A stretch of DNA of 63,484 nt, the filler included, from Dugesia japonica (Eukaryota): NCBI GenBank assembly GCA_001938525.1. It is 6 parts of 6 records of this genome, joined end to end, with 100 filler letters (N's around TTAATTAATTAA, not from the genome) between each part and the next. Parts side by side here need not be neighbours in the genome. Positions count along the whole stretch, not along the records: positions 1 to 11,327 come from MQRL01639730.1; positions 11,428 to 24,434 come from MQRL01589327.1; positions 24,535 to 36,012 come from MQRL01533496.1; positions 36,113 to 44,870 come from MQRL01637014.1; 2 more parts are not named here. One strand, given 5' to 3'. Positions 8,311 to 43,042 of the stretch are shown one piece after another. Made by a program: the position numbers and the translations under genes. Each line of letters opens with the position of its first letter. The first letter of the stretch is position 1. Below the pieces are notes generated by a model. The model saw only the letters and a list, made by a program, of their open reading frames with translations. It ran no database searches and was not told where the DNA came from.

Positions 8311-11031
8311 TTCAGCGCTAAATGAATAGTAGCACAAGATACTTTAACGCTAAATGTATCAAATATTCTTTCTGACATTTTCCTTTAAGATGTTCTTGCG
8401 TAGTCAACGATTTTATCTCGAATTTTCCCCAAAATTACCCAGAGTCACGATGCTATCATTTTAATACTTAAACGGATTCATGCCACTTCTCATTGTTGAC
8501 TAATATTCAACAATAACAACAATTGACGTGTCGAGCTGGTAATTAGAAATAACTCATGTTCTTGTTTTGAGCGACAACTTAATGGTTTTTCTTCCCACAA
8601 CTCGTTGTAGACTATTACGATTACTGCCATCGGTGAATAGGTACTTATTGTTAATCATATTTTCTTAGTTATGGATATCCAAATTTTTCTAGCATTTTAA
8701 TTTCAAAAGTTTAATTACCAATTAAAAGTTTTAAAATGTAATTTAAAATCAAGAACTTTTTAATTTTTACGTAATATATTACACAAATTTTAATTGAATA
8801 AATTCTAATCATAAGTAGAAATAAAAATTGGAATGACAATAACAGAATTTTCATAGCTAAAATAAATTCAGTTCATTTTTAAATTAAATTGAAAAAAGTT
8901 TAAATTAAACAAAATAATTATTTTAATTAATAATTACTGTTTCTTCTCATTTGTAACGAGCAATTGTTAGATATCACATATTAAGTACTTCTTACACTTG
9001 TTATATAATAGATAAATGTTTTCGTGAACTGATAATCAATAAATAAATGATAAATAAATAACCATAAATAAACAGAAATATTTTTAAATATTTCAAATGA
9101 ATTTTTAGATAATCAAGAATCCATTTTTTCTAGTTATAGATTGTAATACTAATTCTTTATAGTTGAAAACAAATTCAAGTTAATTAAAATTGATCTCAAA
9201 ACAAATTACTAGTTTAATTGTTCAATTAAAACAAACTGAAGCAATTTCTAAATTGTCCACAAAAGATTTACATAAATATCGATGCATTAAAAATAATAAG
9301 ATTGTAAAAAATATGAAAATAAAAACATTAAAATAAATTTTAAATAAATTTATTTTTTATTAATTTTTTTTATTTTCATTTTAGAAATTAAAAAAATAGA
9401 ATCTTTAACATTTTTTTATTAATGTATTTTTGAAAATCAGATTAAACTTCATATATAGGTATTTTCATTATTTTCTTTTTCGTCAACTGTAGTAAAATAT
9501 TTTCAAAGGCAAATGTTAAACAATTCAACCATTATTATTAATTATATCAACCATATTTGTTCATACACTTCTTNNNNNNNNNNNNNNNNNNNNNNNNNNN
9601 NNNNNNNNNNNNNNNNNNNNNNNNNNNNNNNNNNNNNNNNNNNNNNNNNNNNNNNNNNNNNNNNNNNNNNNNNNNNNNNNNNNNNNNNNNNNNNNNNNNN
9701 NNNNNNCAATTGCAAATTCATTTTTACAAGCTGTTACTTTTCAGATTATTTAAGATTATTATTAAACAGTTTTAAACAAGAAATTTTTGTATTATATTTA
9801 TTAAATTGTTAACAATATAACATATAAAAGTAATCAACTGGATTTGATTTTTCCAATTTGTTTTTAATATTTCTTAATTAAAAAAAATTAAATATTGAAA
9901 TAAAAAAAAATAAATAAAAAGAAATATAATATAGATATAATATAAATAATAAATATAATTAATTATTAGAAAATATTAATTACATAGGCACGTATTTTGG
10001 GATTTCACCTCTGCTTTTTTGGAAATTTAAAAATAAGTTAATTTAAAATAATTTGATTTTTATTTGTTTAAAAATAGTTTAATTTTAAAATATTTAAACA
10101 TTAAAATAATAATAAGATAAACTTTCAAAATAACATTTTAAGTAAAATATTAATAGAAATTTAAATATTTTTTTCTTTTTAATAAATATTTCATGGATAC
10201 TAAAACTCTTTTCAATTCAACAGTGAGAGTCGTAGACTAACCTAACAATAATTAAATGGGTAATGAATAACATTGAATAAAGAAAAACATGAATTCAATC
10301 GAAAATCAAAACAAACTTATCAATCTGTAAAAACTTTAGCCAATGAAATTCGAGAACCAAAAGCTTAGTCAGAATCTAAAAATAAACAGAAAATTATAAG
10401 AAGTACAGAAATCATAATCAATAAAATCGAGCTCATGGATAAACAATATAATATATTACTAATTAATATTGCTTTATTATTATTACATAATACTTAATAA
10501 TTATTACACAATACAATATTATAATTGGTAGAATCTGAGCTGTAATGAAAATCATTTGAGGCATATTATGCTTTACGAATTCATAAAAAATATGAAGAAA
10601 ACCAATGAGATTTATCGTTGGGTTTTGAATATTAAGAAGTGTCATCAATAATTTGCTAAATTTTGTTCAGTCTGCAGTCTTTCACTCTAATATTTTAAGT
10701 AAAATTTTCAATAATTTATTTTTTTCCTGTTTCAGTAAATATTTTGAAAACATTTTGGTAATAATTGCGATTATGCGCTCATAAAACGGTTAGAAAATTT
10801 TACATTAATAATATTCCGGTAACAGTTCGATAATAGAGTTCCTGCAATCGTGAAAGAAACTTTTTATTAAATTTTTTCAATGATTTCTGTAAATCGAGAA
10901 AATGGTACTATTAAAAATTAGAATAATTAACTATTTTTTGTCTTTTAGGTTTTGGAACCTTTTAGTGATTTCGTTATGGACAATAGTCATCAATTGTCAA
11001 TCAAGCCTATATATTAAATTAATATTTAACA

Positions 11032-11266
11032 ATTACAATTGTTGCGAAAATAATTGTTGGACATAACCATTGATCGTTTTACANAATTCATTAAAATAAA
11101 GCTTCGATCAAAAACATTTTTTTTGTTTTTGATAATAATTCTAATTTTCAACTTTGTCCCTGTCAGGAAATAATTTTTTTTTCAATTCCTGACGAAGACA
11201 ATGCCGAAAAGTAGAATTATTAATAAAAACAAAAAAATATTTTTGATCGAAGCTTTTATTTTAATG
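11032..11266. mobile_element. Hammerhead-bearing short retroposon (Penelope pLTR-like), inverted back-to-back arrangement
   Basis: Minus copy with tail (11032-11170) plus an inverted plus copy (11183-11266), flanked by a 15-bp direct repeat aattaatatttaaca (11017-11031 and 11267-11281). Confidence 0.8.
11184..11218 (+). ncRNA. Minimal type I hammerhead ribozyme motif, slightly mutated
   Basis: aattc-CTGACGA-A-GAC-aat-GCC-GAAA-ag-TA-gaatt; one mismatch in helix II and one in helix III relative to the 17-kb copy. Confidence 0.65.
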
Positions 11267-11327
11267 AATTAATATTTAACATCCTTTTTTTACATAAAAA
11301 CAATTAATGATATTACGTAATAAATAT

Positions 11328-11427
11328 NNNNNNNNNNNNNNNNNNNNNNNNNNNNNNNNNNNNNNNNNNNNTTAATTAATTAANNNNNNNNNNNNNNNNN
11401 NNNNNNNNNNNNNNNNNNNNNNNNNNN
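11328..11427. other. Artificial scaffold-joining spacer
   Basis: Exactly N44-TTAATTAATTAA-N44 (100 bp, stops in six frames); identical at five sites. Confidence 0.95.
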
Positions 11428-12043: not shown

Positions 12044-12218
12044 GTAATATCCATTCGTATATACGTATATTTTATGTTTAAATTATGTATTTTGTTCNNN
12101 NNNNNNNNNNNNNNNNNNNNNNNNNNNNNNNTTAATAATTATTAATAATGCATAACTTTGCCTCGAACAAAATACATAATTCAAACATAAAATATACGTA
12201 TATATAAATGGGAATTAC
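12044..12218. mobile_element. MITE-like element with about 54-bp imperfect terminal inverted repeats
   Basis: gtaatatccattcgtatatacgtatattttatgtttaaattatgtattttgttc is mirrored by gaacaaaatacataattcaaacataaaatatacgtatatataaatgggaattac. Confidence 0.7.
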
Positions 12219-14779
12219 GTTTACAATTTGATACTGTGTTTTCTAGCATAATAAAATATAATTATAATTATTTTTTATTATATTAGAAAACCCAGTATAG
12301 AATTGTCAACGTATTTATCGGGTGCAATTTTATCTATTTAAAAGTATTTCAATAATTTTTATAGTAAAAAATTGAAATTATAAATTTAGTATTAACCGCA
12401 TGTACTTGCATAGGATCAAAATGACTCGAGTCGTTGTCTTCTAATCTTTATCTCAGATAGTTGATATTTCAAAGTAAGATCAAATCTCTTTCTAATCTTC
12501 TAATATAACAAAAGCTAATAGTCACTAGTTGATCTCTATCTATTGTACACATAACTGTCTGTGACTGATTTGATTTCCTTTTTAATTTCCTTTCCATAAC
12601 TTGAGTACTTTTGGGTTAAATAAATTAATTAAATTTATATTGAAATATTGTTAAACTTATAAAATTCACTTAAATGAAACCTCTATCAAATGTTTATTTA
12701 TAAAATAAAAGTATGTGATAATAGAATTATAAATAATTTATTAATAAAAATTTGTTCATCAAATTCAAATGGAAGTTTGATAAATAAATATTTAATAAGA
12801 TTTATCGTATGGAAATTATAATTTACATTTAATTTAATTATAATTTACATTTACATTTGATAAGTCAATTAATTTTGCTTATATATTCCAATTAAATTTG
12901 TTGGGTTAGAACGTGACCAAAATTGAATTTAAAAGTTTTGCGCAAAATAAAGTTTTTTAGTATTAACTGTATGTACTTGTATCGGATCAAAATGACTCGA
13001 GTCGTTGTCTCCTAATATTAAGTATATTAAAATTATATTGTAATTTGTAAAATTATCAAATTTCTGATTTTCAACAAAATATATTTTTTATTATATTTTT
13101 AAATTTTACTTTATTTATTAAAATTTAAAATAAACTGAATTAATGTAATTTTTTCAAAAGGATGATATTTTTTATTTTTTGTTTGGAATATAAATTTTTC
13201 AATTTTTTTGGAAAAAACAAATTTACATTCATAGTTTTTGTTTTGTAAATAAATGTTTTATAGAAGGTAATTTTTTCAATTCTTCGATGAGTTCTCCAAA
13301 CTCATCTAGCAATCACAACATGATTAGTCTCTAGAAATAAGTTTTCCGACAGACGTAAAAAGAACAATCACGTAAATATTGCAAGACTAATTATTATAAA
13401 TATTGAACAAGGAATGTGAATATGGCGTATATTTAAACCCAGTAAGACATTTAACATGAGTGATGAGGATACAACCTCTTGAAACCGACAGAAGTTGAGT
13501 ACCACGAGAAGAATCCGAATCAAAGGAGAACTTAACATGTACTCTATAGGAGCTAGTTACTAGATGTCATATGAAAACTAGNACTGGGAACTTAGTTAAA
13601 TGCATAGTGGTGTACACAATATGTACCTGGTAGTACTGAGATCAATACTAAAAGATAAAGGCAATTCGAAGTGCATGATGAACCCATAGGAACCCAACAA
13701 ATTTATATCGACCTGGGTTTTATAAATACTCACCTTTCTTTACATGAATCGGAATCAGGCATGATAATATATTTATCAAAGGAAATCTTGTTTAACTATT
13801 TGATTTTATAAAACCTAACAAATTTAGTTATAATTAAATCATTAATTTAAATTAATAAATAAAATTTTTAATAAGAATAAGTTGATATGCTCAATATTAA
13901 TTTTCTTAAAGGTATTTAATGCTTTCTTTATAAATTTTGCTAATAAATTATCTTCTTTTATTTTTAATTTAGTTGTATTCTATTCCTCCTTGTTTGTTGC
14001 CACAAATGCCAGCGTTTGGTACACAAAACTTTCCTAGATTTATTAATAGTTCTGTAAATTTTTGTAATAGTGGTAGTTACTTTAACTATAATAATATTAA
14101 TATTGGTAACTATAACAATTATCGTCGAAATAGTGAGCATGATGAGTGAAATTTCCTAATTTAGTAAAAAGCTTGCTGTTGAATGCTTTTGTTAACATTT
14201 TTGTCTGAAGTGATTGTTTTGCTGTTCATATTTTTTTTGTTCTCGTGTGACGGTTTATTTCAGTTACGAATTTTCAACGTAACGATAGGCATTCAATCCC
14301 GTACTGTCAGTGTAATTCTGGTACGTTTCAACATTAATTTATTGAATATTTAATTATAAAAAAATATTAAACATAAAAATTAATATTGTGAAACAATTTT
14401 CGATATAACCGCGGATGTAATTATTAAAATATTTTTATTTAAGTTTACAAAACATAGCCTTATGTACTAAAAGTTATAATTAAAGAAAAGCTTAGATCCG
14501 AAGTCGAAAATCTATGTTTCCTGGATTACTAATTGACCCACTTGAGCTCTTCAATTAAAATATTTATAAAAATAAGTTATAGAACACAAACAACAAACGA
14601 ATAATTTGAGAAAATATATAAATAATAAGATTAGCATTACACAATTAAGTGAAAGAATTATTTAAGTTAAATAATTTATAGGAGTATTTCCAAAATGCCC
14701 TCAAAATCAAAATAATTCCAAAATGCCCTCTAATTAAAAATATTTGTTTTGAATAAATATTAATAAATAATTTTACAAG

Positions 14780-15704: not shown

Positions 15705-17007
15705 CCCTAGACAAAACTTCTGAAACTTAAGATTATTTTGTAATTTCTAATTAAACATTTTGCTGTGTATTTTTTATGTTTTGTTTTTGTCTTGAAGTAA
15801 ATTCAAAATTTGTATAAGTAAAAATTTCTATATTAATGTGTTATAATTAGGAATTATTTAAATTAAGAATTTGATTGATTAATTAAAACATTGAGCAGCT
15901 GGANNNNNNNNNNNNNNGAAAATTTATTGTAATAATTGTTTATAAATAAAAAAAGTAATGTCAGTAGGCTCTAGAGAAACAAAAAAAGAAGAATGATATC
16001 AAGCATAACACATTGAAGGCAACTCAAAAGTTTGAAAATAATAAAACTATTAATGATTCCGAAATCGCAAGCAAAATTATTAATTTACATTTATAACACT
16101 CCAAAAAAATATTTATAAAGTTATAATCTATAATGATAATAATATAAACAATACAATGAAAAAAATATGAGCTTGGATTCAATTTAAAAATTTAAATATT
16201 TTTATTTATATTTTTTGTATGAAAAAATAATTAAACTATTTTTGTTTTAAAAAAAACTATGGATGTATTAAAAAATGATAAAAGTCTTATATTCTACGGC
16301 GAGCATCTCTGACCCGCCTAACAATTATTGTGATAGTAAATTTCGCAATTACAACAGAATGAGTAACCATTTTGTATTATTAAAATATTAATATTATATT
16401 ATTTTATATCAAATAAATAATAATGTTAAAATAGAATTTCTAAACTTGCAGTCGACAAGTAGATACAAAAAAATGTCAGTTATTCAAGCGGTTATAAAGG
16501 ATCAAATAATCAAGCCATTGATCAATGTAGATGGATAATAAAATAAATGTAAAAATAAAGTCTCATACTCTCTTTACACTCGAATGAGAATAAAATATTT
16601 GAAATTGGAATGAAAATATAAATTATAAACAATTTCTCAAATTCAAATAAATTGTTGGAACAAAACAGTAGGTGCATGGTGTGAAAACCTACAAACAATT
16701 AACCAGCTGAAAATTAATAATTCCGTTAGATTGAAAATGAAATAAAAACAGAAAGAAAGTCAAAGTGAAAATTAATTATTAAAAATATAAAATAGCAAAT
16801 TGTTAAACCAGATTAATTAAGTTGATTTATTGAAGCTGATAATTTTTGCGACTTGTGATTAAATTTAAAAATAAATGGTTGTGATCTATAAAGTGACTTG
16901 ATCTCGGAAGAGTATCTCATAGTTTATGTATAAAAATTGGCTGATTTTACATATATTAATAAAAATCATCTACCAAATAATGGATATTTAGTTTTAATTT
17001 GTGTATT

Positions 17008-17096
17008 CATTTAAATATAAAAACTTCGATCAAATTTTTTTTTTGTTTTTGATAATAATTCTAATTTTCGACATTGTCTTCGTCAGGAATTGACTA
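17008..17096 (-). mobile_element. Hammerhead-bearing short retroposon, subfamily A (89 bp)
   Basis: 16-bp TSD ttttaatttgtgtatt (16992-17007 and 17097-17112); homologous to the 11-kb copies. Confidence 0.85.
17057..17091 (-). ncRNA. Minimal type I hammerhead ribozyme motif, intact core
   Basis: Reverse complement aattc-CTGACGA-A-GAC-aat-GTC-GAAA-at-TA-gaatt: helix I 5 bp, helix II 3 bp, palindromic helix III AAUU, UUA cleavage triplet. Confidence 0.8.
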
Positions 17097-17189
17097 TTTT
17101 AATTTGTGTATTTGGAACAGCCAAACGAAGAATTTTCACAACGGTTTTTAACAAAANCAGTTTTCAAACAGAAAATCAATTTAAACTTT

Positions 17190-17420: not shown

Positions 17421-19351
17421 AATTTGTTTTTATTTCATAGTTTTATTTGGTTTTTATGAATCCAAAATTTTTGCAAAATTTGTTAAACTTAAATGTAAAT
17501 TTTATTAGATATCATTAATAATTTGTGTTGAAAGAAAATAATTTACAAACGGATTATAATGAAATTTCTAAAATGTCAGCGAATAACTAAAATCGTTCAC
17601 ACATCGTAAATCTTAAGTCGAAATTCTAAATTTATTATTAGAAATTTAAATTTTTTTCCAAACTAGTAATTTGATTAGATGTTAAATTTTGGTATCCTAT
17701 CAAAAATAAAGCGACCATAAAAAGGTGAATTAAAATAAATATTTTATCAAGAAAAAAGAATAAACGTTTTAATCCAGACATATTTTATCTGCGACCTATT
17801 TAAATCAATTTTAATTTTAGTTGTGACTACACATAGCCGATTAATCTAAGATAATTATAGTCGGAAGCGCACATAGTATATTATAGAAAACATTAGAGAA
17901 GTGGCAGAAAATTACATTCGGAACCATAAGTTAAGCATCCCTGATCTAAACGAAGGAAATATCAGAAGATAGTTAATTACAACAAATTTCAAATTGCGCC
18001 TTTTGTAGATAGTGATACCGAAATTTCAACTTTTTGTCAAAATNNNNNNNNNNNNNNNNNNNNNNNNNNNNNNNNNNNNNNNNNNNNNNNNNNNNNNNNN
18101 NNNNNNNNNNNNNNNNNNNNNNNNNNNNNNNNNNNNNNNNNNNNNNNNNNNNNNNNNNNNNNNNNNNNNNNNNNNNNNNNNNNNNNNNNNNNNNNNNNNN
18201 NNNNNNNNNNNNNNNNNNNNNNNNNNNNNNNAAATCATTTTGTGTATACACTTCTCAAAGAGTCACGAATGGCATTAATAAGACTACGCGTGAAATAAAT
18301 GATTAAATTATGGATTGTATGGGTGATAAAGGTATCCTAAATGTAGTGAATTAATGTTTACGATTTATTTATCTCAAAAATAAAACTTAAGTTTTAATTT
18401 TTTATGGCATATAATAATTATTTATATAAACATCAGTATATCATAAATTATAAATGCAAAAATATTCTTTCGCTTAACATAGATATGATCAAACTATTCC
18501 TTAGTATTCTAATACATACTATCCATTTTTCTGATGCTAAGTCATTTTCATGAATTGTTAATTTGATGAATTCTTACAATATTGAATTTTGTTGAATTCA
18601 TTATTATTATTAAGAATCTTATACTAATCGTAATTAGTTAATATGTTATTGCTTTTACAGTACTGATATTCATGTAAATTACTTTGGTAAATAAAATTAG
18701 GTCGAACCAAGTTACATATTTACAATAAATATTTTTTGTTAAGTTCTCTATTTATATGACCTTTCATATTGACCATTTTATTTGCATATTTTGATGAATG
18801 ATTGTCATTTAATATTCTAGAACTACATGGAATGATATTCAAATTTGTTCAATTATNNNNNNNNNNNNNNNNNNNNNNNNNNNNNNNNNNNNNNNNNNNN
18901 NNNNNNNNNNNNNNNNNNNNNNNNATTGGATTTTAGATACTTTAATAACTTTAATTATGAATGATATTCACTATTATAATAATTTCCAAAATGATTAATG
19001 AACTTCATCATTATTCTCATCAATTTTTGTATAAAAATAAAGTATATTCTTTTTAAATTTTCTATTAAAGGTTTTATCAATAATCTCTGTTAGAAATAAA
19101 CATTAATTTAATAAGATTACTGATATAGGGTATCGTATTTATGGCTATCCGTTAAATTAGTATAAATAAATAATAGAAATAATAATTAGTTAATATTGAA
19201 AATAAGAATTTAAATTAATGTGAAATTTGTTTCTTTAAGTAAAAAAAAATATTTCTTGAAAAGAAATTATCAAAAATTTCTAATAAAAAATTAAAAGGGT
19301 ACTTGAATGTATACTTTTTATTTGTTTAAAAGTTTCTATATTATTATTATT

Positions 19352-19462
19352 ATTCATTAAAATAAAAGCTTCGATCAAAATTTGATCTTAGCTTTTATTT
19401 CAATGAATTCTGATAAACGATCAATGGTTACGTCCAACAATTATTCTCGCAATAATTGCAAT
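19352..19462. mobile_element. Truncated inverted copy of the hammerhead retroposon family (ribozyme part absent)
   Basis: attcattaaaataaaagcttcgatcaaaa is joined to its inverse tttgatcttagcttttatttcaatgaatt plus the tail ctgataaacgatcaatggttacgtccaacaattattctcgcaataattgcaat. Inserted in a (TTA)n tract. Confidence 0.75.
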
Positions 19463-19959
19463 TATATTATTATTATTAAGATTGTTGTTGCAATAACTTA
19501 AGGAGAATAATAGAGTAAAATAATANTAATAAAATAATAATAATANAAAGAAAGAAATAACTTACTGAAGAGTTGCTACTCAATCCTTATATATCATTAT
19601 GAAATCAACAGATCATTAATATGGTTGACATTAGCAAACAAACAGTCTTTTTCTAATCGATGTTCATAGATCAAATAAAGAGAATGGGTACTATTTAAAT
19701 TGTAGTGCTAATAAGAATTATGTAATCAAAATGCAAATAAAATAATAATTTTAAAAACATTTAATTTAATAGTAGTAACTAAATATTAATTAGAAATGAA
19801 TAAGGCTCAAAATGAATATTACACAAACAGAATTACTAATATCATGGTATTGAACCAATTTAACCATGGAAATAAATTATTTCAGTAATATTTCAATAAC
19901 CCCTAATAAATGAGTTCAAGTTTATATTTATCAGATATCGATATATAATTTAAATATTA

Positions 19960-22170: not shown

Positions 22171-22179
22171 GATAGACAA

Positions 22180-23450: not shown

Positions 23451-23543
23451 ANNNNNNNNNNNNNNNNNNNNNNNNNNNNNNNNNNNNNNNNNNNNNNNNN
23501 NACAATTGAAGCAGAGCAGAAAACAAATATTTCGTACCATAAA

Positions 23544-27290: not shown

Positions 27291-27336
27291 GTAAAGTGTT
27301 TTTACACAAATTATTTTAAATCAAATTAATTTTCAG

Positions 27337-27456: not shown

Positions 27457-27493
27457 GTGAAGTATTAATTAATTTTTTTTATCATTTAATCAT

Positions 27494-28020: not shown

Positions 28021-29778
28021 TATTTCTTTAATTTTTTTTAACAATTTATTTTGCATATATTTTTATTTTATTATTTATTATCATTTATTTTTACATAATA
28101 TACAAAAATTAATTTAATACCAATAACTATATTACTCCGTAAACATTTTTAATTAAATTATTATTGATTTATTGATCGTAGATAACTGAAAATTGATATT
28201 TTAATTTTATCAAAAAAAAAACAGTGTAACCCAAAATAAACAAAAATGAACCAGATGATAATTTTGGAAATTTTAAAGCGTGTACATTTGATTCAAATGG
28301 CGTAGAATCCAACCTGTATCGGTTTTTGAATACATAATAATGTAACTACATTAAAGCAAACAATTCCACTCAAATTTATATTCATTGAATTAACAATACC
28401 TTAGGACACAAAGTTTATATGTTCTAAAATCACAATTATACGCAGCTGTATTGCTGTATATATAATTTATGATGATTTTTATATTTTTATGAAATTTGTT
28501 TTTGGTAGAATTATTTCAACTTTAAAAAAAGTTTTATTTGTGTTTTAATAAGTATTCAATAAATAGTAATGATTTTAAACAACAAAATAAAACTTGTCAT
28601 TATCCGCCAGTCAGCTTATTGTTGCGGAAAGCAAACACCAAGAAGAAAAAATATATATACACAACAAACAGATCAATGCACGCACAGCATTCATATAATA
28701 CATATATGCAGATACAAAACAAATATCGATCAACCGAGTACCAGCAAAACCCAATCAATAATCCTTATATTGTGTTCCCGGAAATTCAATTCTGTGACAA
28801 TGATTATCTATTTCTAACAATTATTATTGATTATCCAAACAGTTTTATTTTATTTTCATTTTTTTTGTACATTTTACATTTTAATTCTATGAACATTCTA
28901 TCTTTATTTGATTTTAAACATTTTATCGATCCTTGTGTTTAAGCGTTGGACGTTATTTGATATCGATAAGAATAATACAATAATATCAATTTTTGTAAAA
29001 GTAGGCTTGTTTTTATTAATTATAATATCTATTTAAATATTTTGTAAAAATTTTTATAAATGTAGGTTTATTTTTATTTTTAAAATTTGTATTTTCATAT
29101 AACGTATGTATGTATTGGCTGGGAATTGATATAAATAGTGTTCAATTTTGTAGAAATTTCACCCGTTTTTATAATCTTAAAAAGATCTATCACTTCTAAA
29201 GTAGCAGATCGTAGATTAAATTAAAAACGCCATTATTGTTGTGAGTATATTTTGAAAAGCGAGTTAAAATTTTTGTGCTTTGATTAGAAATTGTTTTTTT
29301 TTAAAAATCATTTTTAAAAAATTGAAAGTTTCAAATTAATTAAGAAGTTAAAATAATTATTTTGAATAGAAGTTTGATCTAAAAGTTTTCAATTGTTATA
29401 AGTTTACTATATAGAATATTTATAAAAATATCATTTTATCTAAAATAAACATACTTAGGTATAGGAAATTTACAATATATATTTGGATATGAAAAATACT
29501 GATTAAGCTCACGCAATTGTCGAAGAATCCCAAAGTCATCTCAACATTATCGAAACAACCATGTTCTACCGCCACCACTGCTAATAACAAAAAAATAAAC
29601 GTTTTTAATGTTTATTTTCATTTTAATTTTCTTTTAAATTTTCGACAGTAATATTGGTTTAAGTAATATGAACTACGGTAAAAAAATTTAACAAAAATTT
29701 CAACTAAAAATTGATAAAGAATATTTTGATCTGTTAATTTCTTTTACTCTTATTGGATATAATAAGATCAATGGATAA

Positions 29779-29831
29779 CAATTGCAATTATTGCNAGAAT
29801 AATTGTTGGACATAACCATTGATCGTTTTAA
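29779..29831 (-). mobile_element. Tail-only insertion of the hammerhead retroposon family (53 bp)
   Basis: Matches about 11030-11090; perfect 12-bp TSD atcaatggataa (29767-29778 and 29832-29843). Confidence 0.85.
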
Positions 29832-30551
29832 ATCAATGGATAAGTTCAAAAATGTTTTAAGAAAAAATCATAATTGTAGAATAAGCAATTTAAAAATTTA
29901 TTGAAACTAATTTAATGTTTTTTTAATCAATACTGTAAAACATGCTAAATATGTAAAATATTTGAAAAACTTTGAAGAAAAAATATAATTAAAAAAAATA
30001 AATTATAAGATTTTTTTATTAATTCAAAATATTTTAAAATTCATGAACATTTAAAAATTTTACCACTGTTTTTAACAGATTCAACAAATTTTTACTTTAG
30101 CTTTTAACTGCTTTCCATTTAGTATTCAATATTTCCGAATTAGAAATATTGTTTTAAACATAACTTTTATTTGTTAACCATGAGTTAATCTTCACAATTA
30201 TAGAATATGANNNNNNNNNNNNNNNNNNNNNNNNNNNNNNNNNNNNNNNNNNNNNNNNNNTATTTGAAAAACTTTGAAGAAAAAATATAATTAAAAAAAT
30301 AAATTATAAGATTTTTTTATTAATTCAAAATATTTTAAAATTCATGAACATTTGAAAATTTTACCACTGTTTTTAACAGATTCAACAAATTTTTACTTTA
30401 GCTTTTAACTGCTTTCCATTACCTTCAACATTTAGTATTCAATATTTCAGAATTAGAAATATTGTTTTAAACATAACTTTTATTTGTTAACCATGAGTTA
30501 ATCTTCACAATTATAGAATATGAAAACAATTCTACCTCTTATTTTATAATC

Positions 30552-31178: not shown

Positions 31179-32251
31179 TTATATTGTTTATTGTTTTGTA
31201 ATCTGTTTGGTTTTTTTCTTTAATAAGACTATCTTTAATATAAATAAGACTATCTTTTATATAAATACTTAATTTTTTGTTTTTAATTTAAAAACTTTTT
31301 AGGATACTGTTTTTAAATACGAGGCATTGTACTAGTTATTGATAAATAAAAAGAATAGCCATTGATAAAGAATGCGTCCAAATATCAAACGAAATGAGTG
31401 TTTTTGATTGGTCATCAATTAGAAAATGTGCGAAAGCATAAATAACTATATAGCTTGGCGTATAAAAAAAATTTCATTTTTTGATGCGAATTAGAAATTC
31501 CAAACTGAATATTCGAATACTTGATATTCGAACATATTTATGTGTTAATTGACTATTTGATATTCGAATCTTTGGACAAAATATTCGAATATTATTGAAC
31601 GATACAAAATTATAAATTGTAAAAATTCAATCAAAGTAAGCTTTGAAAAAAGTTTCAAAGAATCTCATTTTGAATTTTCCTAATGTGTTTTGTGTGACAT
31701 TATTTTAGTTGGCTTTTGAAAAACAGTAGAAATAAGTTATTGTTATTGTAATTAAAAATTTTAATGATTAAAATAAATCGTAATCAATTGTAAAATTAAT
31801 TTTTTTGGATATTTCTTATATTTGAAAGGTAAATTAAATTTTGTTAGATTATCTTACATAATTACTATTAGTTAAATTTATAGTCTCACAAGTCTCCATA
31901 AATTGTTTATTGATTATTACAAGTCTTTTCTTAAAAATAAAAATATGAAATAAAAATTCACAAATTTCAAACAAATAATCTGAGAAATATTAATAAAATA
32001 TTTTCAAAAATATTGGTTTTTTAAACTCATTTTAGAAAATAATTTTTTAAAATTTTATAATTTAGCACATTGTAAATTTTAACTTTAATTTAAAATATCT
32101 TTGTTTTACATATATATTTATTTATTTTTCAACCTTATAATTTTTAAACTTTTATATTTTAAAAATTTTAAAAAACCAATCTTAATATTAAATATATAAA
32201 TTAAAAAATCTCAGACATCAGAAATTCATGAATCGATACTCACAATTACAT

Positions 32252-32352
32252 TCATTTAATATAAAAGTTTAGATCAAAATTTAGGTTTTAATTATTGATA
32301 TTGGATAACAATTCGATATTTCGACCTTGTCTTCGTCAGGAATTGACTTTTA
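32252..32352 (-). mobile_element. Hammerhead-bearing short retroposon, subfamily B (101 bp)
   Basis: 11-bp TSD cacaattacat (32241-32251 and 32353-32363); same end as the other copies. Confidence 0.85.
32309..32345 (-). ncRNA. Minimal type I hammerhead ribozyme motif, intact core
   Basis: Reverse complement caattc-CTGACGA-A-GAC-aag-GTC-GAAA-ta-TC-gaattg: perfect 6-bp helix I, 3-bp helix II, palindromic helix III AUAU, AUC cleavage triplet. Confidence 0.85.
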
Positions 32353-35300
32353 CACAATTACATATTTAGATTTTTAGCCATGTCAATAAAATCCGAGGTG
32401 TGAAAGTTTTTTAATAAAGACGAAAAAAATTGGTGAACCCACATGTAGTACCTGTAACGCGAAAGTAGGATGTTGAAGTTCAACCACTCCTATGATTAAT
32501 CATTTGATGTTACGACACAACATATTTATATCTAAATCGGTATCAAGGAAAAATTATGAAGAAAATAATGTTCCGCAGAAAAAGCTAAAAATTGAAACAA
32601 GCACTATTTTGAACTTTGTAAACAAAACAGTCTTTAAATGAAATATTGTCAAAAGTCTCAGCAGTTGATGGTGTGTCAATCCAAGCAATAAGCAAATCCG
32701 ATGCAATAGCTGGGTACGTGCAACAAAAAGGTTATAAAATTCCCAAAAGTCCAATTACTATTTCAAAATGCATCATCAGCTTTTATAAAGAAAAATGTAT
32801 TGAACTGCGAAATAAATTTGAAAAATTTAAAAAAGCAAATCGTAAATTTGCTATTAATGTGGATGAATGAACAGATTGCACTATCTTACGTTTTTTAAAC
32901 GTAACAGTTCATGTAGTTTGAATGGAATCAAGTAAAGCTGGGTTTAACGGAAATAGTTACGCAGTGAAATGAAGAAACTATTAAACATTCATTTGAAGCT
33001 AAGCTAGAAAACTTTGGCATTTCTTTAAAAATTGATGTTATGGCATCCACTAACGACGCGGCAGCTGTAATGATAAATACGGAAAAATATTAGATGTTTT
33101 TTATCATCTTGGCCATAATCATGCACTCAATTTGGCTGTAACGGACTGTTTTTATATATCAATAAATTCTACTCCTAATGAAGCTTTNGACTTGGACAAT
33201 ATCGAAAATTTTGTTGATGATAAAATTGAAGATGATGTAGAATAAGATTTCAAAAAAGATCTGTATTCAGATAACAATTTGGAGTTAGTTGAAGAAAATA
33301 AAGATGTTGTGACATTGAGTATTGATTTTGGTCAAATTACTAACAGGTTAAGAGATGGTAAAAGAATGCTTAAAAAAATCATCTTTAAAGCACTCTATTT
33401 TGCCACAAAATATAGTTCGAAAAATGGGGAAAACTGAAGTTAAAATTAGACATCAAAACAAGATGGAATTCTTTGATTGTAATAATTTGACGATTTTTAA
33501 TTTTATCAGAATGTGTCAATAAATCCTTAATGGAATTGAATTTAGAACCAATTTCAAACAATGATACAAAACCTTGTTGATGTTCTTTCACCAATTCAAA
33601 CTGCCATTAGTGAATATAGCAAGAATGATACAGATCTCATAACAGTTGAGGGGTTTACAAATTTTTGTTTGAAAAGTTGCAACGTATCCAAGCTGCTGCA
33701 TGCTATTAAAAGAAGGATAAAATAAAGAAGAGATCCAGTTTTGATTAACTTATTGTTTATCTACATGGTGGAAATGTACCAATTTCCAACGATTACTTTC
33801 AATATTCTTCAAAAAATGCAGCAATTTCATAATCTGAAAAAATTATAGAACAAATATATCTAAAAATATTTATTGAAGAAAGTAATAATGATAATTTACG
33901 TCATCTTTAACTGATGATGTAATAGAATCATCACCACAAACTGGATTACGAAAAGAATTGCAAAATGCAATAAGTTCCATTTCAGAAAAATGTAATGTTA
34001 ATAATGAAACAAATAATAAATATAATGAACTGGAAAAAGAATTTCTCCAATTGGATTTATTCAAAAACGGTCGGTAACGCTGGATATCTTATAAAACGCA
34101 TTAGTTACTATACGACATATCTCAACAGCAACTGAAAGAGTGTTTTCAACAGCAGATGCAATAAAATCGAAAAGGAGATCAAAGTTAAATATAGAAACTT
34201 TCAATTCCATTCTATTTCTAAAATATATGTTTAAAAGTAATAAATTAAATATATAAATAATTAATAGTCTTGTGCGATCTTCCTTTTATTTAATATTTAC
34301 TTTTATAGCTTTTATTAAAACTTCCCGTTTTAGATACAACTATCCTTCGTGTCACTGATTAATCACTAACTGATATAAATCAATATAATCAGTTTTGACG
34401 TTCGCATTAGCAGATACCTCTATAACAAAAGCAATAAAAATATTAAATTGTTTTTTAATAATTTTATTACTATAATATTTATTGTTGATAATCTTTTTTG
34501 AAGTTTTAGTAAATTATTCGTATATTCCAATAATCGAATATTTTAAAAAATTTTCTATTCGTTATTCGAATAGTTGAAAACCTTGAATAGTTGGAATGTC
34601 TAATGCGACTTCATGTGCCTAAAAAAGGTCATCCACTTAAATCATAAAAAAACAAAACAATTGTTATATAAAAATTGTTTTTCCTACTTTATTCCCTTTT
34701 TATTATTATTTTATTAATTTATTTACAGTAATACTGTAACACCTGTCTGTAGTCTGTACTCTCAATACACTGATGTCCCATACGTTGTCTCCGTACTTTA
34801 AAGAATGAGATAATGACGTCATTATTTAATGCTTGGCGTATTTGTTGCTATATGTTACTAAACAAAAACAAAAATTTTGATAAAAATTTAACCCCCCTAC
34901 ATATATTGATATAGCATATTGTCGAATTTGAAAAATTGCATATTAATAAATACTGAAGTTATAATAACTATAAGTCTGGATAAATCTTTAAAATGATACT
35001 GTTTATTTAATTATTTTTAGGCTAATTAGGAGAAATCTTTGAATTTATTATTTGAATTACAAATATTTTACATGGAGTAAGACCATCAAATAATGATTTA
35101 TTTCAAAAAATCATTGATTTTTTCCAACAATTATGCAATTAAATATGCTTGGAATAAATACTTTGTTCATATACTGATTATTATTTAAAAATTAAATTAA
35201 ACACTAGTAGTAATTATCTTTAATTACATTATACTATTTTAAAATGTTTGAAGAACGCACTAACGTTATTTTATAATCAGCGTTTTCACTTAAGCATAAC

Positions 35301-36682: not shown

Positions 36683-36783
36683 TAGCGGGATTAAGTGATT
36701 CAAATCTCGTCGAAGCTCATGGTACTTTTGCTTCGGCTAGCTGTGTTAGTTGTGGTGAGTGTTATTCTCCAACACAATTGAAA
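36683..36783 (+). CDS. SIRT3: NAD-dependent deacetylase sirtuin-3, internal exon (101 nt)
   Basis: tttag|TA GCG..AAA|gtaagt encodes AGLSDSNLVEAHGTFASASCVSCGECYSPTQLK, with the catalytic His and first CxxC. Confidence 0.92.
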
Positions 36784-36819
36784 GTAAGTTACGAAATGAT
36801 GATTATTATTATTATTAAC

Positions 36820-36821
<2 letters not shown>

Positions 36822-36878
<57 letters not shown>
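36822..36878. repeat. (TTA)n microsatellite in SIRT3 intron, running into a gap
   Basis: Directly visible. Confidence 0.95.
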
Positions 36879-37146
36879 NNNNNNNNNNNNNNNNNNNNNN
36901 NNNNNNNNNNNNNNNNNNNNNNNNNNNNNNNNNNNNNNNNNNNNNNNNNNNNNNNNNNNNNNNNNNNNNNNNNNNNNNNNNNNNNNNNNNNNNNNNNNNN
37001 NNNNNNNNNNNNNNNNNNNNNNNNNNNNNNNNNNNNNNNNNNAGTATAATTCTAAGAGTTTTGGGTTCTGTTATTGACTAACTAAATGTAAAACAAAATA
37101 TTGGAAACGTTATTTTAAAATTATAGTTAAATTTAATTATTTTCAG

Positions 37147-37308
37147 GAGAGTATAGATAAAAATGAAATTTGTTACTGTTCAAATTGTAGAGGAATCGTT
37201 AAACCAGATATTGTATTTTTCGGTGAAGATCTTCCTTCAAAATTCCATTTATACAGAAGTGATTTTCAGCAGGCTGATTTGCTTTTAGTAATGGGGACTT
37301 CTTTAGAG
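37147..37308 (+). CDS. SIRT3: Sirtuin-3 internal exon (162 nt)
   Basis: tttcag|GAG..GAG|gtattt encodes [54 protein letters not shown]; in frame with both neighbours. Confidence 0.95.
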
Positions 37309-38666
37309 GTATTTCTATAAATTAATTAATAACTCTATATGTTTTATGATCTTCATTTTGTACATCAGCTTATTATAGATCAAGTATTTGATATAAATAT
37401 CTTGCGATTATCATTTCGATTTATTAAATATTTTTTTGTTATATTTTCAAAATCGATTTTAAGTTTTATTAAAATAATCTTGTGGAAAGGAGAAATTTTA
37501 TAATTATTTTATCAATAATTATAACACTTCATTAAAAATTAATTTTCTTCTGTTGGAAGTATTGCTTCTTAAATTAAATTAATTTACAAGTCGCTTTTTA
37601 AGATCCAAAATAAATATTAATAAAAATAACAAATATTCAAACATATTTTTAATTGGGTTACATGACACTTGATACCCTGACATTTGATCACGATAATTGA
37701 TCCTTCGGGCAGTTGATCTCCTGAATTTTATTATAATAGAATACGATTGACAATTGAATATTTTTAATAAATAATTAGAAATATTTATTTTTAATTTTAA
37801 TAACAACGAAATTTAGCAGTAATAAATTTAAATGTTTATTTAACATAATGGAATATATCAATACATAAACATTTTTTTATTCGTAAGATAAATGCCAAAT
37901 TAATCGTAAATATATGTGCATATCTACGTTATTATAAGTAGCAATTATCTGTGAAAGCATTTCTTTCAGAATACGGTAATTTTTCCGTGATGGTATTACA
38001 ATATCTCAAGTTGGTTGCAACAATAACATTTTAATTTTAATTAATATTTAATTTTTTAAATAACTAGTATAAAATTTTCGTATCTTACTCCTTCTATATT
38101 AGAATTTTGTAACATAATTGAAATTATAAAAATGTTATTTAGTTTTTATTTTTGTAGGAAAATGGAAATATTTTAACTATGATTTTATCTAAACTTAAAC
38201 TTATGGATAGATTAAATTGATTTCACTTTGTTTTATCAATATTTAAGTTTTAAACACAAAGTAAATTTTATAAGTTGATAAGAATAATTAAGTGTTACAC
38301 TATTGTGAATAAACTTTGATTGTCGTTAGTTGCGAAATAATAATCTCATAATGTTTTATATCCATCGCTTATTTTAGTTCTTCCGTCACACGACACGTGA
38401 GTTTCCTGTAAATTTATTTAAAGCCATTCTTTTTTAAAAATAATTTTTAAATCACAATTTATTTTGTTAGAAAATGTTAATCTGTAACGTCTTTCTTTCT
38501 CATAACATTTTATTAAATAATAATATTGAATTATTTACTCCAAAAAATTTATTGTTCATTTCGGTGATGTTTTGTCATTAAAGGCGATTGTTTATTAGAA
38601 TATCGGGGTTGATATTTTATATGATATTATAAAGATTTTGATAATTAGTTTAGAATATTAATTTTA

Positions 38667-39440
38667 TTAGGTCTACAATTGAAAAGGTGCCTTTTTAGTA
38701 AATGACTCCAAAGTCACAATTCAACTGGGTTATGAGTAAATATTTAAATATAAATATTGTAAAATCTATATCTAAGTCATATTTGTTATAATAAGCCAAA
38801 AAACGCAGAAATTCAATGACATCCCAAAAATGCATATAAGACCTTATTTGGTATTTGACTTCCAATTACGGAAAGCAGCATATGAAGAAACGGACATTAT
38901 TTCTGCTCTAGGGGAAGGTGCAGTAAGTTACAAAACATTCAAAAGACTGTACAGAGGATTAAGAAGCTTGATAAACTGACCATTAACATTGGACTCAAAC
39001 AGCTGGAAATGATTCATAAAACTTGCAGGTTTTTTAGATGATACGAAACCAAAACTTTGCTGTGCATTTGGTGTAATTACATGAAAGTGATATACTATGA
39101 GTTGTATAAACCTAAGCGCAACAGTCACATCAGAAAGGTACAAATGGCAGTTGAACAGTGTGAGAGAGGTGCTCAAAAAAATTGGCCATTAATGGTGCTG
39201 AAACCTGGCCTGTCCTTCTTCTGCATGACAATGCCCGACTTCATACGTCAAAACCACCGTGGACTATATTTCCTTTTTGGATTGGACAGTTCCTTTCATG
39301 CAGCTTACTCATCTGATATGGCGCTATCGGATAGTTATTTATTCCCATTTTTCTAACATCACTTGGTTGAATCGTCATTCGAAACAATTGATTATGTTCA
39401 AAAATCTATCTCAAATCACATAGATTCAAAATCGACATCT
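38667..39440 (+). mobile_element. Decayed, internally deleted mariner in SIRT3 intron
   Basis: TA|TTAGGTCTACAATTGAAAAGGTGCC TIR; HIRPYLVFDFQ..ALGEGAVSYKT, LCIWCNYMKVIYYEL, LLHDNARLH, HAAYSSDMALSDSYLF. Confidence 0.8.
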
Positions 39441-40189
39441 TTTTTTCCAGACCAGAATTAAAATAAATTTATAATTAATTTATAATTTTTGAATTGTTTT
39501 TTACCAAAAATTCCCCACCCCAAATTAATTCAAATATTGGTCAAATATATTCAAATATTCCAACAATACAAATTATTATTGACTTTTTTATTTGTTTATT
39601 ATTAATATTATTATTTATTTATTATTAATTATTTATTNNNNNNNNNNNNNNNNNNNNNNNNNNNNNNNNNNNNNNNNNNNNNNNNNNTTTATTCCCATTT
39701 TTCTAACATCACTTGGTTGAATCGTCATTCGAAACAATTGATTATGTTCAAAAATCTATCTCAAATCACATAGATTCAAAATCGACATCTTTTTTTCCAG
39801 ACCAGAATTAAAATAAATTTATAATTAATTTATAATTTTTGAATTGTTTTTTACCAAAAATTCCCCACCCCAAATTAATTCAAATATTNNNNNNNNNNNN
39901 NNNNNNNNNNNNNCAATACAAATTATTATTGACTTTTTTATTTGTTTATTATTAATATTATTATTTATTTATTATTAATTATTTATTATTATTTATTTTT
40001 AATATTAATTATTATTTTAACAATGTAAAATTTAAAAAATTTTAATATATAGCTTAATTTAAAAAAATTTTATATGCAAGCGTTTCCAGGTGAGTCAGTG
40101 AGGGAATCGGGGGTTAATATTATAGATTTTATTAATTTTTTCAATAATAATATTAAAAATTGGTACCTTTTCAATTTCTAGATCTAGTA

Positions 40190-41320
40190 TTAGGTTGTTC
40201 GGAAAATAATTAGCTTTTTATGTTTAGCAATTGTGGATGATTTCATTGTATATAAAATAAGTACAAAGTGCATCATATTATACATCAAATTGAAGCTTAG
40301 ATGCTAATGATTCATATTACAAATTTATTTGTTTTACTGATTTAAATTTTAGCATATTTTGGTACAATTTTAAAAATGGTAACAAAACAGCAAACTTGAG
40401 CAATATATTTATACGAATTTAAGGTTGGAAATACTGCAGCAGATACACACAGAAATATATGCAGAGCTTTTGGAAAATGTTATGTAGCAGATTCATCTGT
40501 ACGTTGGTGATTTGCCGAATTCCGTCTTGGGAAATTTGATCTCAATGATGAAGAGGGTCGTGCACTCAACACTTCAGTGGACAACGATGACTTGAAGGAA
40601 ATTATTCAAACACACGTACTACAGTACGAAATTTATCAAAGCAATTAACAGTATCTATTTCAACTATTTCTGAACACCTAAAGCAGATTGGCAAGGTGAA
40701 AAAGTTAAATACATGGATACCGCATTTATTAAGTGAATATCAAAAACAAATGCGATATGATGTCTGCTCAAAACTGATTATTGATATCCGTTTGGTGGTG
40801 TCAGGCGGGGTTGGTTCATTATGAATTCCTAAAACCCGGTGAATCAATAACATCAGATATATACTGCAATCAATTGGAACGTATGCACCACAAATTAAAA
40901 GTTCTGCAATCAGCATTTGTCAATAGAAAAACTCCAATTTTGCTACATGACAACGCGAGGCCACGTGTAGCAAAAACAAACTCTGCAAAAGGTAAAGGAG
41001 CTTGGATATGAGATTCTTCCATATCCGACATACTCACTGGACTTATCTCTTACGGATTATCATTTATTTCTAGTGTTAGACCATTTCATCTCTGGAAAGG
41101 TCTTCAATAGTTACGACACCATAAAACAGGTATTTGAAGAATTCGTCGTCTCTCGTTAATATGATTTCTATGAACGTAGGATATCGAGTCTTCGATTGCG
41201 TTGGGAACAATGTATCCAAAGTAATGGAAATTATTTTAAAGGAATAAATGTGTTTAATTCAAGAATTTATTATTTTCATTTTTGTTCGTAATAATGCTAA
41301 TTATTTTCCGAACAACCTGA
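40190..41320 (+). mobile_element. Mariner transposon with both TIRs, non-functional transposase (cecropia/Hsmar1-like)
   Basis: TIR TTAGGTTGTTCGGAAAATAATTAGC at both ends with TA duplication. ATG at 40376; IYLYEFKVGNTAA, WIPHLL, SVWWCQAG, LLHDNARP, YSLDLSLTDYHLF. Stops, frameshifts and a deletion of the first catalytic Asp region. Confidence 0.95.
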
Positions 41321-42524
41321 TAATTACTTTTTTTCAATATTAGATTTTTGCATTTTATTAATACCGAAGGTATTGTAAAATAATATTAAAAAGATACGTA
41401 CTCACTGTCAGATTATGTCATCTGAAAATGTTTAGAATACTGATAAATACGTTTCGAGTTCATTTATTCGTGGCAATATCAGATAATTCTTTGAATCCTT
41501 TTCAAAAATAAAGATCGTTAGCAGAATCTCCGTAACTAATTTGTTTCTGGGTCATCTTTAATATTTAACATCATTAACTTTCAATTTTAATTTACCATAG
41601 TTATTGACTTTTGTTACATCTATGTCTGATTAAAGGTGATAACTATATAAAGGTTACCCATTATCAAAATAACTACTTCGTAATAATATGAAGAGCTTAT
41701 AAATAAGTACGTTTTGAATTAATGATAGAGAATTATAATTTATGTTTTAAATTGATTAATTCACCCTGCACATCACAAGGCTACTGGTGCTAATTTTCAT
41801 AAATAATTAATAATACAAATCAATAAATTATTTATAATATTTATTTTCCATTGCGACATGGTATAAAATTCTGGTTACCTTTTCAATTTTAAGTGGTCAG
41901 GATTATATTATTTTAATAAAATCAAGGTAATATCGATTGAAATCTTCTTGGCTGAATTTCAATGGTTATCAGCTATCAGCTATTAATTCTTGAAAATTAC
42001 TGTCTAAAAAACAGTTTTAGTTATTGATTTAAATCATTAATCATATTTGACAGATTTAATAGGTTCTTGTCATTCATATTAGACTGAAAATCACTGATGC
42101 TTATTTAGTTGATTTGTTTTTTAATACAATAGATAATTAAATGTGTGCTTTAATTTGTAACTAGTAAATTTTTGATTTTGTTTCTATATTTTCTTTTAAA
42201 AATGTTTTTTTTAATATTTTTATACAAATGTATAACAAAATATTATGGAGATTATGGGACTTTTAATAAAGGTAGTATTAATAAAAATATTTAATTTAGT
42301 TTTCTCGAGTTTCCGATTTGTTTGCAATTTATATAAAGTTTTGCTTCGATAATTCAGAAAAAATAGACCGTTCAAAGATTCGCCTTTGAAATAGTTTGAA
42401 AAGTATCATAAAATAAATTTTATTAAAATTTGTTTCCGTAACTTCTCTTTTTTATTTCACTTTATTAATGTTAGGTAAATCTTCAATTGGTAATTGGTTA
42501 TTCAAATCAGAACTAATATTTTTA

Positions 42525-42738
42525 TTTTANNNNNNNNNNNNNNNNNNNNNNNNNNNNNNNNNNNNNNNNNNNNNNNNNNNNNNNNNNNNNNNNNNNNNNN
42601 NNNNNNNNNNNNNNNNNNNNNNNNNNNNNNNNNNNNNNNNNNNNNNNNNNNNNNNNNNNNNNNNNNNNNNNNGAATTGTTATCCAATATCAATAATTAAA
42701 ACCTAAATTTTGATCAAAGCTTTTATATTAAATGAATT
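42525..42738 (+). mobile_element. Hammerhead retroposon subfamily B copy in SIRT3 intron, 5' part hidden in N gap
   Basis: 42673-42738 matches the reverse complement of 32252-32314, starting at the 3' strand of helix I (gaattg). Candidate 12-bp TSD ctaatattttta (42513-42524 and 42739-42750). Confidence 0.72.
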
Positions 42739-43042
42739 CTAATATTTTTAGACAATATTTATTTTTCTATATCAACTCTAAATTTAATAAGAAAAATGAT
42801 AATTGAATAGTAGCTTAAAAAACTTTTTTCCAGAATTAACTCAATTTCTATTGGTTCAAAATTATTAAATAATAATTATTTCCTCATAATTAATAAATAG
42901 TATTGTTTATAAATCAGTATTTCTTTAACATCTGCATTTAAATTTGAAAATTTATTGTTATGTCCTTTTGTTTATTGTGATGTTTATTGTTTATCATAAA
43001 ATTGTGTACCTTAAATTTTTGTGCATTATCTTTTGTCTACTG

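What the first reader, a model, noticed from the sequence alone, without database searches (positions are those of the whole stretch)
11017..42750. Family of tiny hammerhead-ribozyme-bearing retroposons at six loci
Seen: related insertions at 11032-11266, 17008-17096, 19352-19462, 29779-29831, 32252-32352 and 42525-42738, on four separate scaffolds. Five have variable 11-16 bp direct repeats, five loci have a copy ending at the same ..AATGAA(T) boundary, and the 5' part holds a CUGACGA..GAAA..UH core. Known: Penelope-like elements carry minimal type I hammerheads in their pseudo-LTRs and leave truncated, inverted, tailed copies. Inference: a very abundant non-autonomous Penelope-derived or retrozyme-like family. 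No RT or GIY-YIG partner is visible in the window.
Basis: partly seen in the sequence, partly recalled or inferred. Interest (0 to 1): 0.82.

Follow-up and report, generated by a model that had tools for sequence, protein, structure and literature searches.

The report
Planarian Penelope stubs with minimal hammerheads
Six short repeats with flanking duplications, two carrying an intact minimal hammerhead ribozyme motif, are likely dead-end stubs of one very abundant Penelope-like jumping gene in what is likely a planarian, an arrangement already described in other animals.

Summary
Six related insertions (53-235 bp) lie between exact 11-16 bp duplications, at all six loci rather than five. Three loci hold the hammerhead core; two arms (B, E) fit the published minimal type I hammerhead of Penelope-like elements (PLEs). 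Copies end at one of two places: at an ATG, or about 55 nt further, after an open 20-codon 'tail'. Tailed arms are inverted, head-to-head. This is the known PLE insertion anatomy. Public runs show the family is huge: 28,752 contigs of one run laid on two copies; crude bracket 2,000-70,000 copies. A sirtuin exon 96% identical to Dugesia japonica places the host among dugesiid planarians. Best reading: short products of an endonuclease-bearing PLE, copied from uncleaved RNA and likely inert. No RT or GIY-YIG partner was found, and no genome was available to look for one. The retrozyme reading fails on tandem arrangement and hammerhead type; a self-propagating mini-element is not excluded. One lead: all four hammerhead-bearing arms stop within about 10 nt upstream of stem I, as expected if they are run-off copies of the mRNA leader. 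New member of a known kind; modest interest.

The parts
11017..11031 (.). Locus A left target duplication (15 bp)
11032..11084 (-). Locus A inverted tail (open frame, likely first codons of the PLE ORF)
11085..11173 (-). Locus A inverted arm; hammerhead core mutated (CUGACAG)
11182..11266 (+). Locus A direct arm; hammerhead 11184-11218 with intact core but broken stem II pair and non-palindromic AG
11267..11281 (.). Locus A right target duplication
16992..17007 (.). Locus B left target duplication (16 bp)
17008..17096 (-). Locus B direct-only copy; intact minimal hammerhead 17091-17057, predicted cut between 17062 and 17061
17097..17112 (.). Locus B right target duplication
19337..19352 (.). 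Locus C left target duplication (16 bp)
19353..19381 (-). Locus C short direct arm (3' end only)
19383..19462 (+). Locus C inverted arm plus tail; ATG at 19403, frame MNSDKRSMVTSNNYSRNNCN
19463..19478 (.). Locus C right target duplication
29767..29778 (.). Locus D left target duplication (12 bp)
29779..29831 (-). Locus D tail-only copy
29832..29843 (.). Locus D right target duplication
32241..32251 (.). Locus E left target duplication (11 bp)
32252..32352 (-). Locus E direct-only copy; intact minimal hammerhead 32345-32309, predicted cut between 32315 and 32314
32353..32363 (.). Locus E right target duplication
42513..42524 (.). Locus F left target duplication (12 bp)
42525..42738 (+). Locus F copy; 42530-42672 is an N gap, 42673-42738 is 97% identical to E
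42739..42750 (.). Locus F right target duplication

Best explanation
The six repeats are likely short, dead-end insertion products of one endonuclease-bearing Penelope-like retrotransposon family, likely copied by its own RT/GIY-YIG protein from RNA that spans the pseudo-LTR and the start of the reading frame. Inferred steps: the protein binds the RNA near the start of the ORF, nicks both strands of AT-rich DNA 11-16 nt apart, and starts reverse transcription at one of two internal sites (about +5 and about +60 from the ATG). One primer gives a direct-only (B, E) or tail-only (D) stub; both together give a head-to-head pair (A, C). Shown: variable exact duplications of 12% GC, two 3' end classes, inverted tailed arms, copies that run across the predicted cut site (so the template was uncleaved), and a published-type minimal hammerhead. 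The hammerhead is predicted to need a dimer and protein help; in these single copies it is likely silent.
For: Duplications 11-16 bp at 6 of 6 loci, null 16 of 3000, 12% GC vs 26% window. Hammerhead fits the Cervera and de la Pena consensus CUGANGAH-G..C-GAAA-N-N-U-H: extra A after A9, G10.1-C11.1, palindromic 15.2/16.2 with a double change UA/AU between E and B. Tail is an open frame from the boundary ATG in C and A; in rotifer Pen2a the pLTR plus tail also covers the first 22 codons and the inverted pLTR carries the tail (PMC3846280). The tail is the stretch between two RT start sites in the anole PLE, whose template is uncleaved and must include ORF sequence beyond the start sites (PMC11167929); no copy here goes beyond the tail. 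In public runs, loose ends cluster at the tail end (X1: 207, 409, 173 contigs at 19457, 19463, 19466) with low agreement (0.47-0.54), that is, many different flanks.
Against: No RT or GIY-YIG gene was found: 0 hits among 233 of 240 frames scanned, no genome held, no related loci. The 20-codon frame alone is weak (P about 0.16). None of the five fully read inserts holds any ORF 3' end, and all 4 core-bearing arms stop within about 10 nt of stem I, which random truncation does not predict. Arms within one insertion differ by 12 of 84 (A) and 3 of 25 (C) positions beside perfect duplications (joint P about 0.013), and copies laid are broadly diverged, which fits many sources rather than one master. 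The tail (about 55 nt) is longer than the usual 30-40 bp. Covariation on four arms does not exceed shuffles (209 of 500).
Confidence: 0.7

Rival explanations
1. The ~155-nt unit (hammerhead, linker, tail) is a self-standing non-autonomous element, SINE-like: short copies are transcribed inside host RNAs or from their own promoter and are re-copied in trans by a PLE protein.
For: Shared 5' boundary at 4 of 4 core-bearing arms; 156 X2 contigs and 97 X22 reads leave the reference at 17095 with low agreement, 0.45 and 0.53; many sequence variants with perfect duplications; element reads are present in both RNA runs laid; pLTRs suffice in cis for mobilisation in trans in rotifers.
Against: Direct-only copies lack the tail; tailed copies end at the second start site and lack the downstream ORF bases the anole protein needs. 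No tandem or complete stand-alone sense unit with intact core plus tail among the six. 95-96% of RNA reads laid run on into unlike sequence and lie on both strands; no start or end pile-up (tables 1, 2, 6). Contig junction counts cannot see a shared continuation, because it collapses into few contigs.
Confidence: 0.2
2. A non-LTR retrozyme: tandem units are cut by the hammerhead into circular RNAs that are reverse transcribed and reinserted as monomers.
For: Type I hammerhead, small size, high copy number; retrozymes are proposed to derive from pLTRs (bioRxiv 10.64898/2026.07.22.740005).
Against: No tandem head-to-tail unit at any of six loci; minimal, not canonical hammerhead; copy ends do not coincide with the cut site; no RNA ends listed there (table 6, though oligo-dT libraries lose such RNAs); the hammerhead dimer fold is far from the best fold (E: -6.2 vs -24.4 kcal/mol; B: -1.0 vs -16.0).
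Confidence: 0.05
3. A DNA MITE or foldback element; the inverted arms are terminal inverted repeats and the hammerhead match is incidental.
For: A and C contain internal inverted repeats; the window is rich in mariner and hAT fragments.
Against: No terminal inverted repeat at any insert (2-7 of 15 end bases match); duplications vary 11-16 bp; B, D, E are one-armed yet have duplications; strict hammerhead match 2 vs 0.005 expected.
Confidence: 0.01

Closest known systems
Minimal type I hammerheads (min-HHR) of metazoan PLE pseudo-LTRs (Cervera and de la Pena 2014, PMC4209133)
   Same: CUGANGA plus one extra base, G10.1-C11.1, GAAA-N-N-U-H with palindromic 15.2/16.2 and no loop 3; U-rich 5' side, AU-rich 3' side; mostly single dispersed motifs; pairs on opposite strands close together; high sequence variety.
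   Different: Different sequence from all rows seen in their Fig. S3, including the Schmidtea mediterranea motif; stem II of 3 bp is at the short end (as in Caenorhabditis rows); no link to an RT ORF shown here.
Canonical EN+ PLE insertion units with inverted pLTR and tail (Adineta Pen2a, PMC3846280; PMC8557442 Fig. 2; D. virilis Penelope, PMC2377424)
   Same: Head-to-head inverted arm carrying the tail, tail at one end only, pLTR and tail covering the first ~20 codons, target duplication, AT-rich targets.
   Different: No ORF between the arms; whole inserts only 53-235 bp; tail about 55 nt rather than 30-40; duplications 11-16 bp rather than the 8-10 bp quoted for the rotifer cases; far higher copy number.
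Anolis Poseidon PAc, in vitro TPRT with two internal RT start sites (Frangieh et al. 2024, PMC11167929)
   Same: Two 3' end classes bracketing a tail; AT-rich target; copies derive from uncleaved RNA; no RNA ends at the hammerhead site.
   Different: In PAc the ATG lies inside the hammerhead and starts map near +111-118; here the ATG lies about 50-60 nt downstream of the hammerhead and ends map near +5 and +60. No protein available here.
Non-LTR retrozymes (Cervera and de la Pena 2020, PMC7229834; Li et al. 2026 preprint)
   Same: Small, non-coding, type I hammerhead, likely PLE-dependent.
   Different: Retrozymes are tandem repeats, mostly with canonical hammerheads, giving circular RNAs; these copies are single or inverted, tailed, with minimal hammerheads.

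Membership tests
EN+ Penelope-like element | Single ORF with telomerase-like RT and GIY-YIG endonuclease | tested here: inconclusive
   None in the window by Pfam (233 of 240 frames), but Pfam also missed an evident Gypsy RT fragment; no genome; 21-aa tail too short for the protein search.
EN+ Penelope-like element | Type I (minimal) hammerhead in the pseudo-LTR | tested here: met
   2 of 4 arms intact, null 1 in 200 shuffles; matches published consensus.
EN+ Penelope-like element | Optional tail at one end, overlapping the ORF start | tested here: met
   Tail at A, C, D, same end within about 3 nt; open frame from boundary ATG; loose-end clusters at tail end. That the frame is the PLE ORF is inferred.
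EN+ Penelope-like element | Inverted 5'-truncated arm, head-to-head | tested here: met
   A and C.
EN+ Penelope-like element | Variable-length target duplication in AT-rich DNA | tested here: met
   11-16 bp, 6 of 6; 12% GC.
EN+ Penelope-like element | Partial-tandem pLTR-ORF-pLTR source copy; retained intron | not testable with these tools
   No genome held. A U-rich run plus AG just 5' of stem I (loose-end letters) resembles the D. virilis intron end but was not tested.
Non-LTR retrozyme | Tandem head-to-tail units each with a hammerhead | tested here: not met
   0 of 6 loci; genome-wide not testable.
Non-LTR retrozyme | Canonical type I hammerhead with loop 1-loop 2 contacts | tested here: not met
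   Minimal type, 3-bp stem II; no Rfam hammerhead hit.
Non-LTR retrozyme | Abundant circular or unit-length RNA ending at the cut site | tested here: inconclusive
   No start/end pile-up in two RNA runs (6% and 25% read); library types lose such RNA.
MITE | Terminal inverted repeats | tested here: not met
MITE | Fixed-length target duplication | tested here: not met
   11, 12, 12, 15, 16, 16 bp

The most novel reading that the evidence does not exclude
The stubs are not random truncations but run-off copies of the element's mRNA leader. Because PLE reverse transcription starts inside the RNA near the ATG, every transcript that begins in the pseudo-LTR yields a fixed ~90- or ~150-nt 'leader-only' cDNA, and only read-through tandem transcripts yield full copies. 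The tens of thousands of planarian copies would then be a genomic record of the RNA's 5' end, both RT start sites and two-template (dimeric) insertion, in an animal where the source can be knocked down by RNAi.
Probability: 0.3. Interest if true: 0.55.

Novelty: new member of a known kind. Interest (0 to 1): 0.27.

Why it matters
As it stands it adds a previously unreported (in the papers searched) but ordinary PLE family, perhaps one of the most numerous short repeats of a regeneration model genus whose recent genome papers do not use the words Penelope or PLE. If the shared 5' end is the RNA start, it would explain why PLE stubs outnumber full copies and give a large natural data set for the still unresolved steps of PLE insertion and for the role of the hammerhead.

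Tried and rejected
No whole genome is held, so no genome-wide count, duplication survey or search for the source ORF. Rfam: no hammerhead, 2 unrelated weak hits. Pattern scans for the hammerhead and the tail in metagenome contigs and viral contigs: 0 each. The repeat finder was swamped by N runs. Protein search with the tail peptide was too short to run. Run search listed no RNA holder on record; no evidence either way. Earlier findings by place and by sequence: none. Craig et al. supplement holds none of the motifs and no Dugesia or Schmidtea entry beyond the name Perere_Smed. Lunse et al. (PMC5785218) is not held; only its title was seen, so its variants were not compared. Folding gives little support: tail hairpin z = 0.09; only E's hammerhead region folds better than shuffles (z = -2.2) and in a non-hammerhead shape. 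Covariation not above shuffles. Microhomology priming considered: 1-4 nt overlap at five 3' junctions, total 12, P about 0.017, but an AT-rich nick preference gives the same picture, so not claimed. MITE rejected. A note's first reading of the 17073 variant as loop AAG was wrong; it is AAA.
Full report
Setting. The window is 26% GC with many gaps and five spacers of 44 N + TTAATTAATTAA + 44 N, which I read as scaffold joins. No genome is held. A sirtuin exon at 37078-37317 is 96% identical over 71% of the query to a Dugesia japonica sirtuin-3-like protein; all other listed hits are at 78% or less. A GPCR at 5163-6254 has an Echinococcus protein as its best named hit (32%). The host is therefore inferred to be a dugesiid planarian.

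Observation. The six loci (A 11032-11266, B 17008-17096, C 19353-19462, D 29779-29831, E 32252-32352, F 42525-42738) are related. Each lies between exact direct repeats of 15, 16, 16, 12, 11 and 12 bp; 16 of 3000 random pairs reached 11 bp. The repeats are 12% GC, and no insert has terminal inverted repeats. In element sense the pieces tile one unit of about 155 nt: hammerhead, an A/T-rich linker, AATGAATT, then a tail of about 55 nt. B and E are direct-only copies that end at the ATG. D is tail only. A and C have an inverted tailed arm joined head-to-head to an untailed direct arm. F is 97% identical to E where readable, but 143 bases are N; its nominal 214 bp is longer than a direct-only stub, so it may be an exception.

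Hammerhead. A loose descriptor finds 3 sites in the whole window, all in this family. A strict one finds 2 (B, E), against 1 hit in 200 shuffled windows. E reads CAAUUC CUGACGA A GAC AAG GUC GAAA U A U C GAAUUG. This is the min-HHR of Cervera and de la Pena (PMC4209133; main text parts 1-2 of 4 and supplement 2 parts 1-2 of 3 read, supplement 1 not searchable). Of 44 cells, 88.6% pair, with a double change UA/AU at 15.2/16.2; slid controls reach at most 50%, but 209 of 500 shuffles match the score, so four arms prove no covariation. In the public contigs the only listed variant inside B's hammerhead is in loop II (17073, 61% in X1), but only 40 of 170 rows were shown. Nearest-neighbour energies disfavour the dimeric active fold, in line with the low activity reported for min-HHRs. 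Rfam finds no hammerhead.

Tail. From the boundary ATG (19403) C reads MNSDKRSMVTSNNYSRNNCN; A and D give the same frame with few changes. Chance of 20 open codons is about 0.16, so this is weak alone. It agrees with rotifer Pen2a, where pLTR plus tail covers the first 22 codons (PMC3846280, passages), and with the anole element, where the tail is the stretch between two RT start sites (PMC11167929, parts 1-2 of 4).

Abundance and RNA. I laid 4 of 24 listed runs on 16900-19520, which holds 2 of the 6 loci. In X1 28,752 and in X2 26,351 contigs were laid; summed depth is 1.4-1.8 x 10^5 in the two bins over B and 1.3-1.4 x 10^6 in the tail bin, against 8-12 for long flank contigs. The tool warns this is no copy number. 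Dividing by single-copy depth and by 1 to 31 overlapping contigs gives a crude 1,700-72,000; the window itself has about 99 loci per Mb. Identity of laid X1 contigs is broad (2606 at 99%+, 8565 at 95-99, 12439 at 90-95, 5142 below 90). Loose ends cluster at the tail end and at 17095, just 5' of stem I, with agreement 0.45-0.54; the two RNA runs share about nine U-rich/A letters beyond 17095 and then diverge. Only 24 of 1250 loose-end rows were shown, and contigs under-report a shared continuation. RNA reads (98 in X21, 2328 in X22; 6% and 25% of the runs) pile on the copies, on both strands, and 95-96% run on into unlike sequence; no start or end pile-up is listed. This fits copies riding in host transcripts and says little about cleavage, since cDNA and oligo-dT libraries lose short or circular RNA.

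Partner. Pfam on 233 of 240 stop-free frames of 48+ codons (7 alternative frames over the GPCR gene left out) found mariner, hAT, integrase, protease, GPCR and sirtuin pieces but no RT or GIY-YIG. It also missed the Gypsy RT fragment at 23958-24365, so short PLE pieces could be missed. Pattern scans of metagenome and viral contigs were empty. The source ORF remains unseen.

Mechanism. Shown: two 3' end classes, variable AT-rich duplications, inverted tailed arms, copies spanning the cut site. Inferred from the anole system: a PLE RT-endonuclease nicks both strands and primes internally on uncleaved RNA; one primer gives a one-armed stub, two give a head-to-head pair. C's junction centres on AAATTT, a self-complementary word present at that place in the element, where two antisense cDNAs could anneal; this is inference, and self-priming is the published alternative. 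Since the anole protein needs ORF bases beyond the start sites and no copy here has them, the stubs are likely dead ends. Unexplained: all 4 core-bearing arms stop within about 10 nt of stem I, and the two arms of A and of C differ by 14% and 12% beside perfect duplications (joint P about 0.013). A run-off from the mRNA 5' end and use of two templates would explain both. Against it, the D. virilis start site lies upstream of a 75-bp intron whose end meets helix I, so the same boundary here could be a splice acceptor or a simple RT stop at a small hairpin (GUCA/UGAC).

Comparison and novelty. It works like a canonical EN+ PLE insertion and meets four testable features; the defining ORF is untested, so membership is likely, not proven. 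It fails the tandem and canonical-hammerhead features of retrozymes (PMC7229834 passages; bioRxiv 10.64898/2026.07.22.740005 parts 1-3 of 5) and both MITE features. Searches for a prior description found none; two planarian genome papers contain no 'Penelope' or 'PLE' (passages). Repbase and Dfam could not be searched, preprint supplements are closed, and Lunse et al. is not held, so the family may be catalogued. Also seen as passages only: PMC8557442, PMC6765202, PMC2377424, PMC6431247. Two earlier AI findings in other genomes reached the same kind of verdict; they are leads, not support.

Verdict. New member of a known kind; interest 0.27.

Noticed in passing
window 29766-29778 and 29816-29824: D's target contains GATCAATGG, identical to 9 nt of the tail, and the insert stops about 7 nt after the complementary word; possible fold-back or RNA-target pairing, possibly chance.
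   Followed up: no
window 5151-6257 (-): Single-exon sex-peptide-receptor-like GPCR (Srw/7tm_1), only about 33% identical to its best database relatives.
   Followed up: partly
window 36652-37317 (+): Sirtuin-3-like exons, 96% to Dugesia japonica in one exon, with a (TAT)n run and gap in the intron.
   Followed up: partly
window 14771-15019 and 23502-24365: Broken Gypsy-type LTR retrotransposon pieces: integrase core; aspartic protease followed by an RT-like frame that Pfam missed.
   Followed up: no
window 1615-1890, 8071-8301, 38776-38976, 40591-41008; 3822-4220, 21759-21902, 34095-34253, 62984-63184: Tc1/mariner transposase fragments and four hAT dimerisation fragments.
   Followed up: no
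window 24956-25713 vs 32487-33297; 24589-24968 vs 34719-34907; 20296-20447 vs 31863-32014: Other dispersed repeat families in opposite orientation; the first two pairs lie on one scaffold 7-10 kb apart, the 24589 copy next to a (TA)n run.
   Followed up: no
window 39338-39987, 29959-30523, 24656-24930: Near-identical tandem duplications either side of 50-N gaps, likely assembly artefacts.
   Followed up: no
window 12044-12218: 54-bp inverted repeat around a 34-N gap, MITE-like.
   Followed up: no
window 27330-27533 (+): Weak Pfam PF15874 match (E 6e-5, below cut-off), perhaps a host exon between C and D.
   Followed up: no
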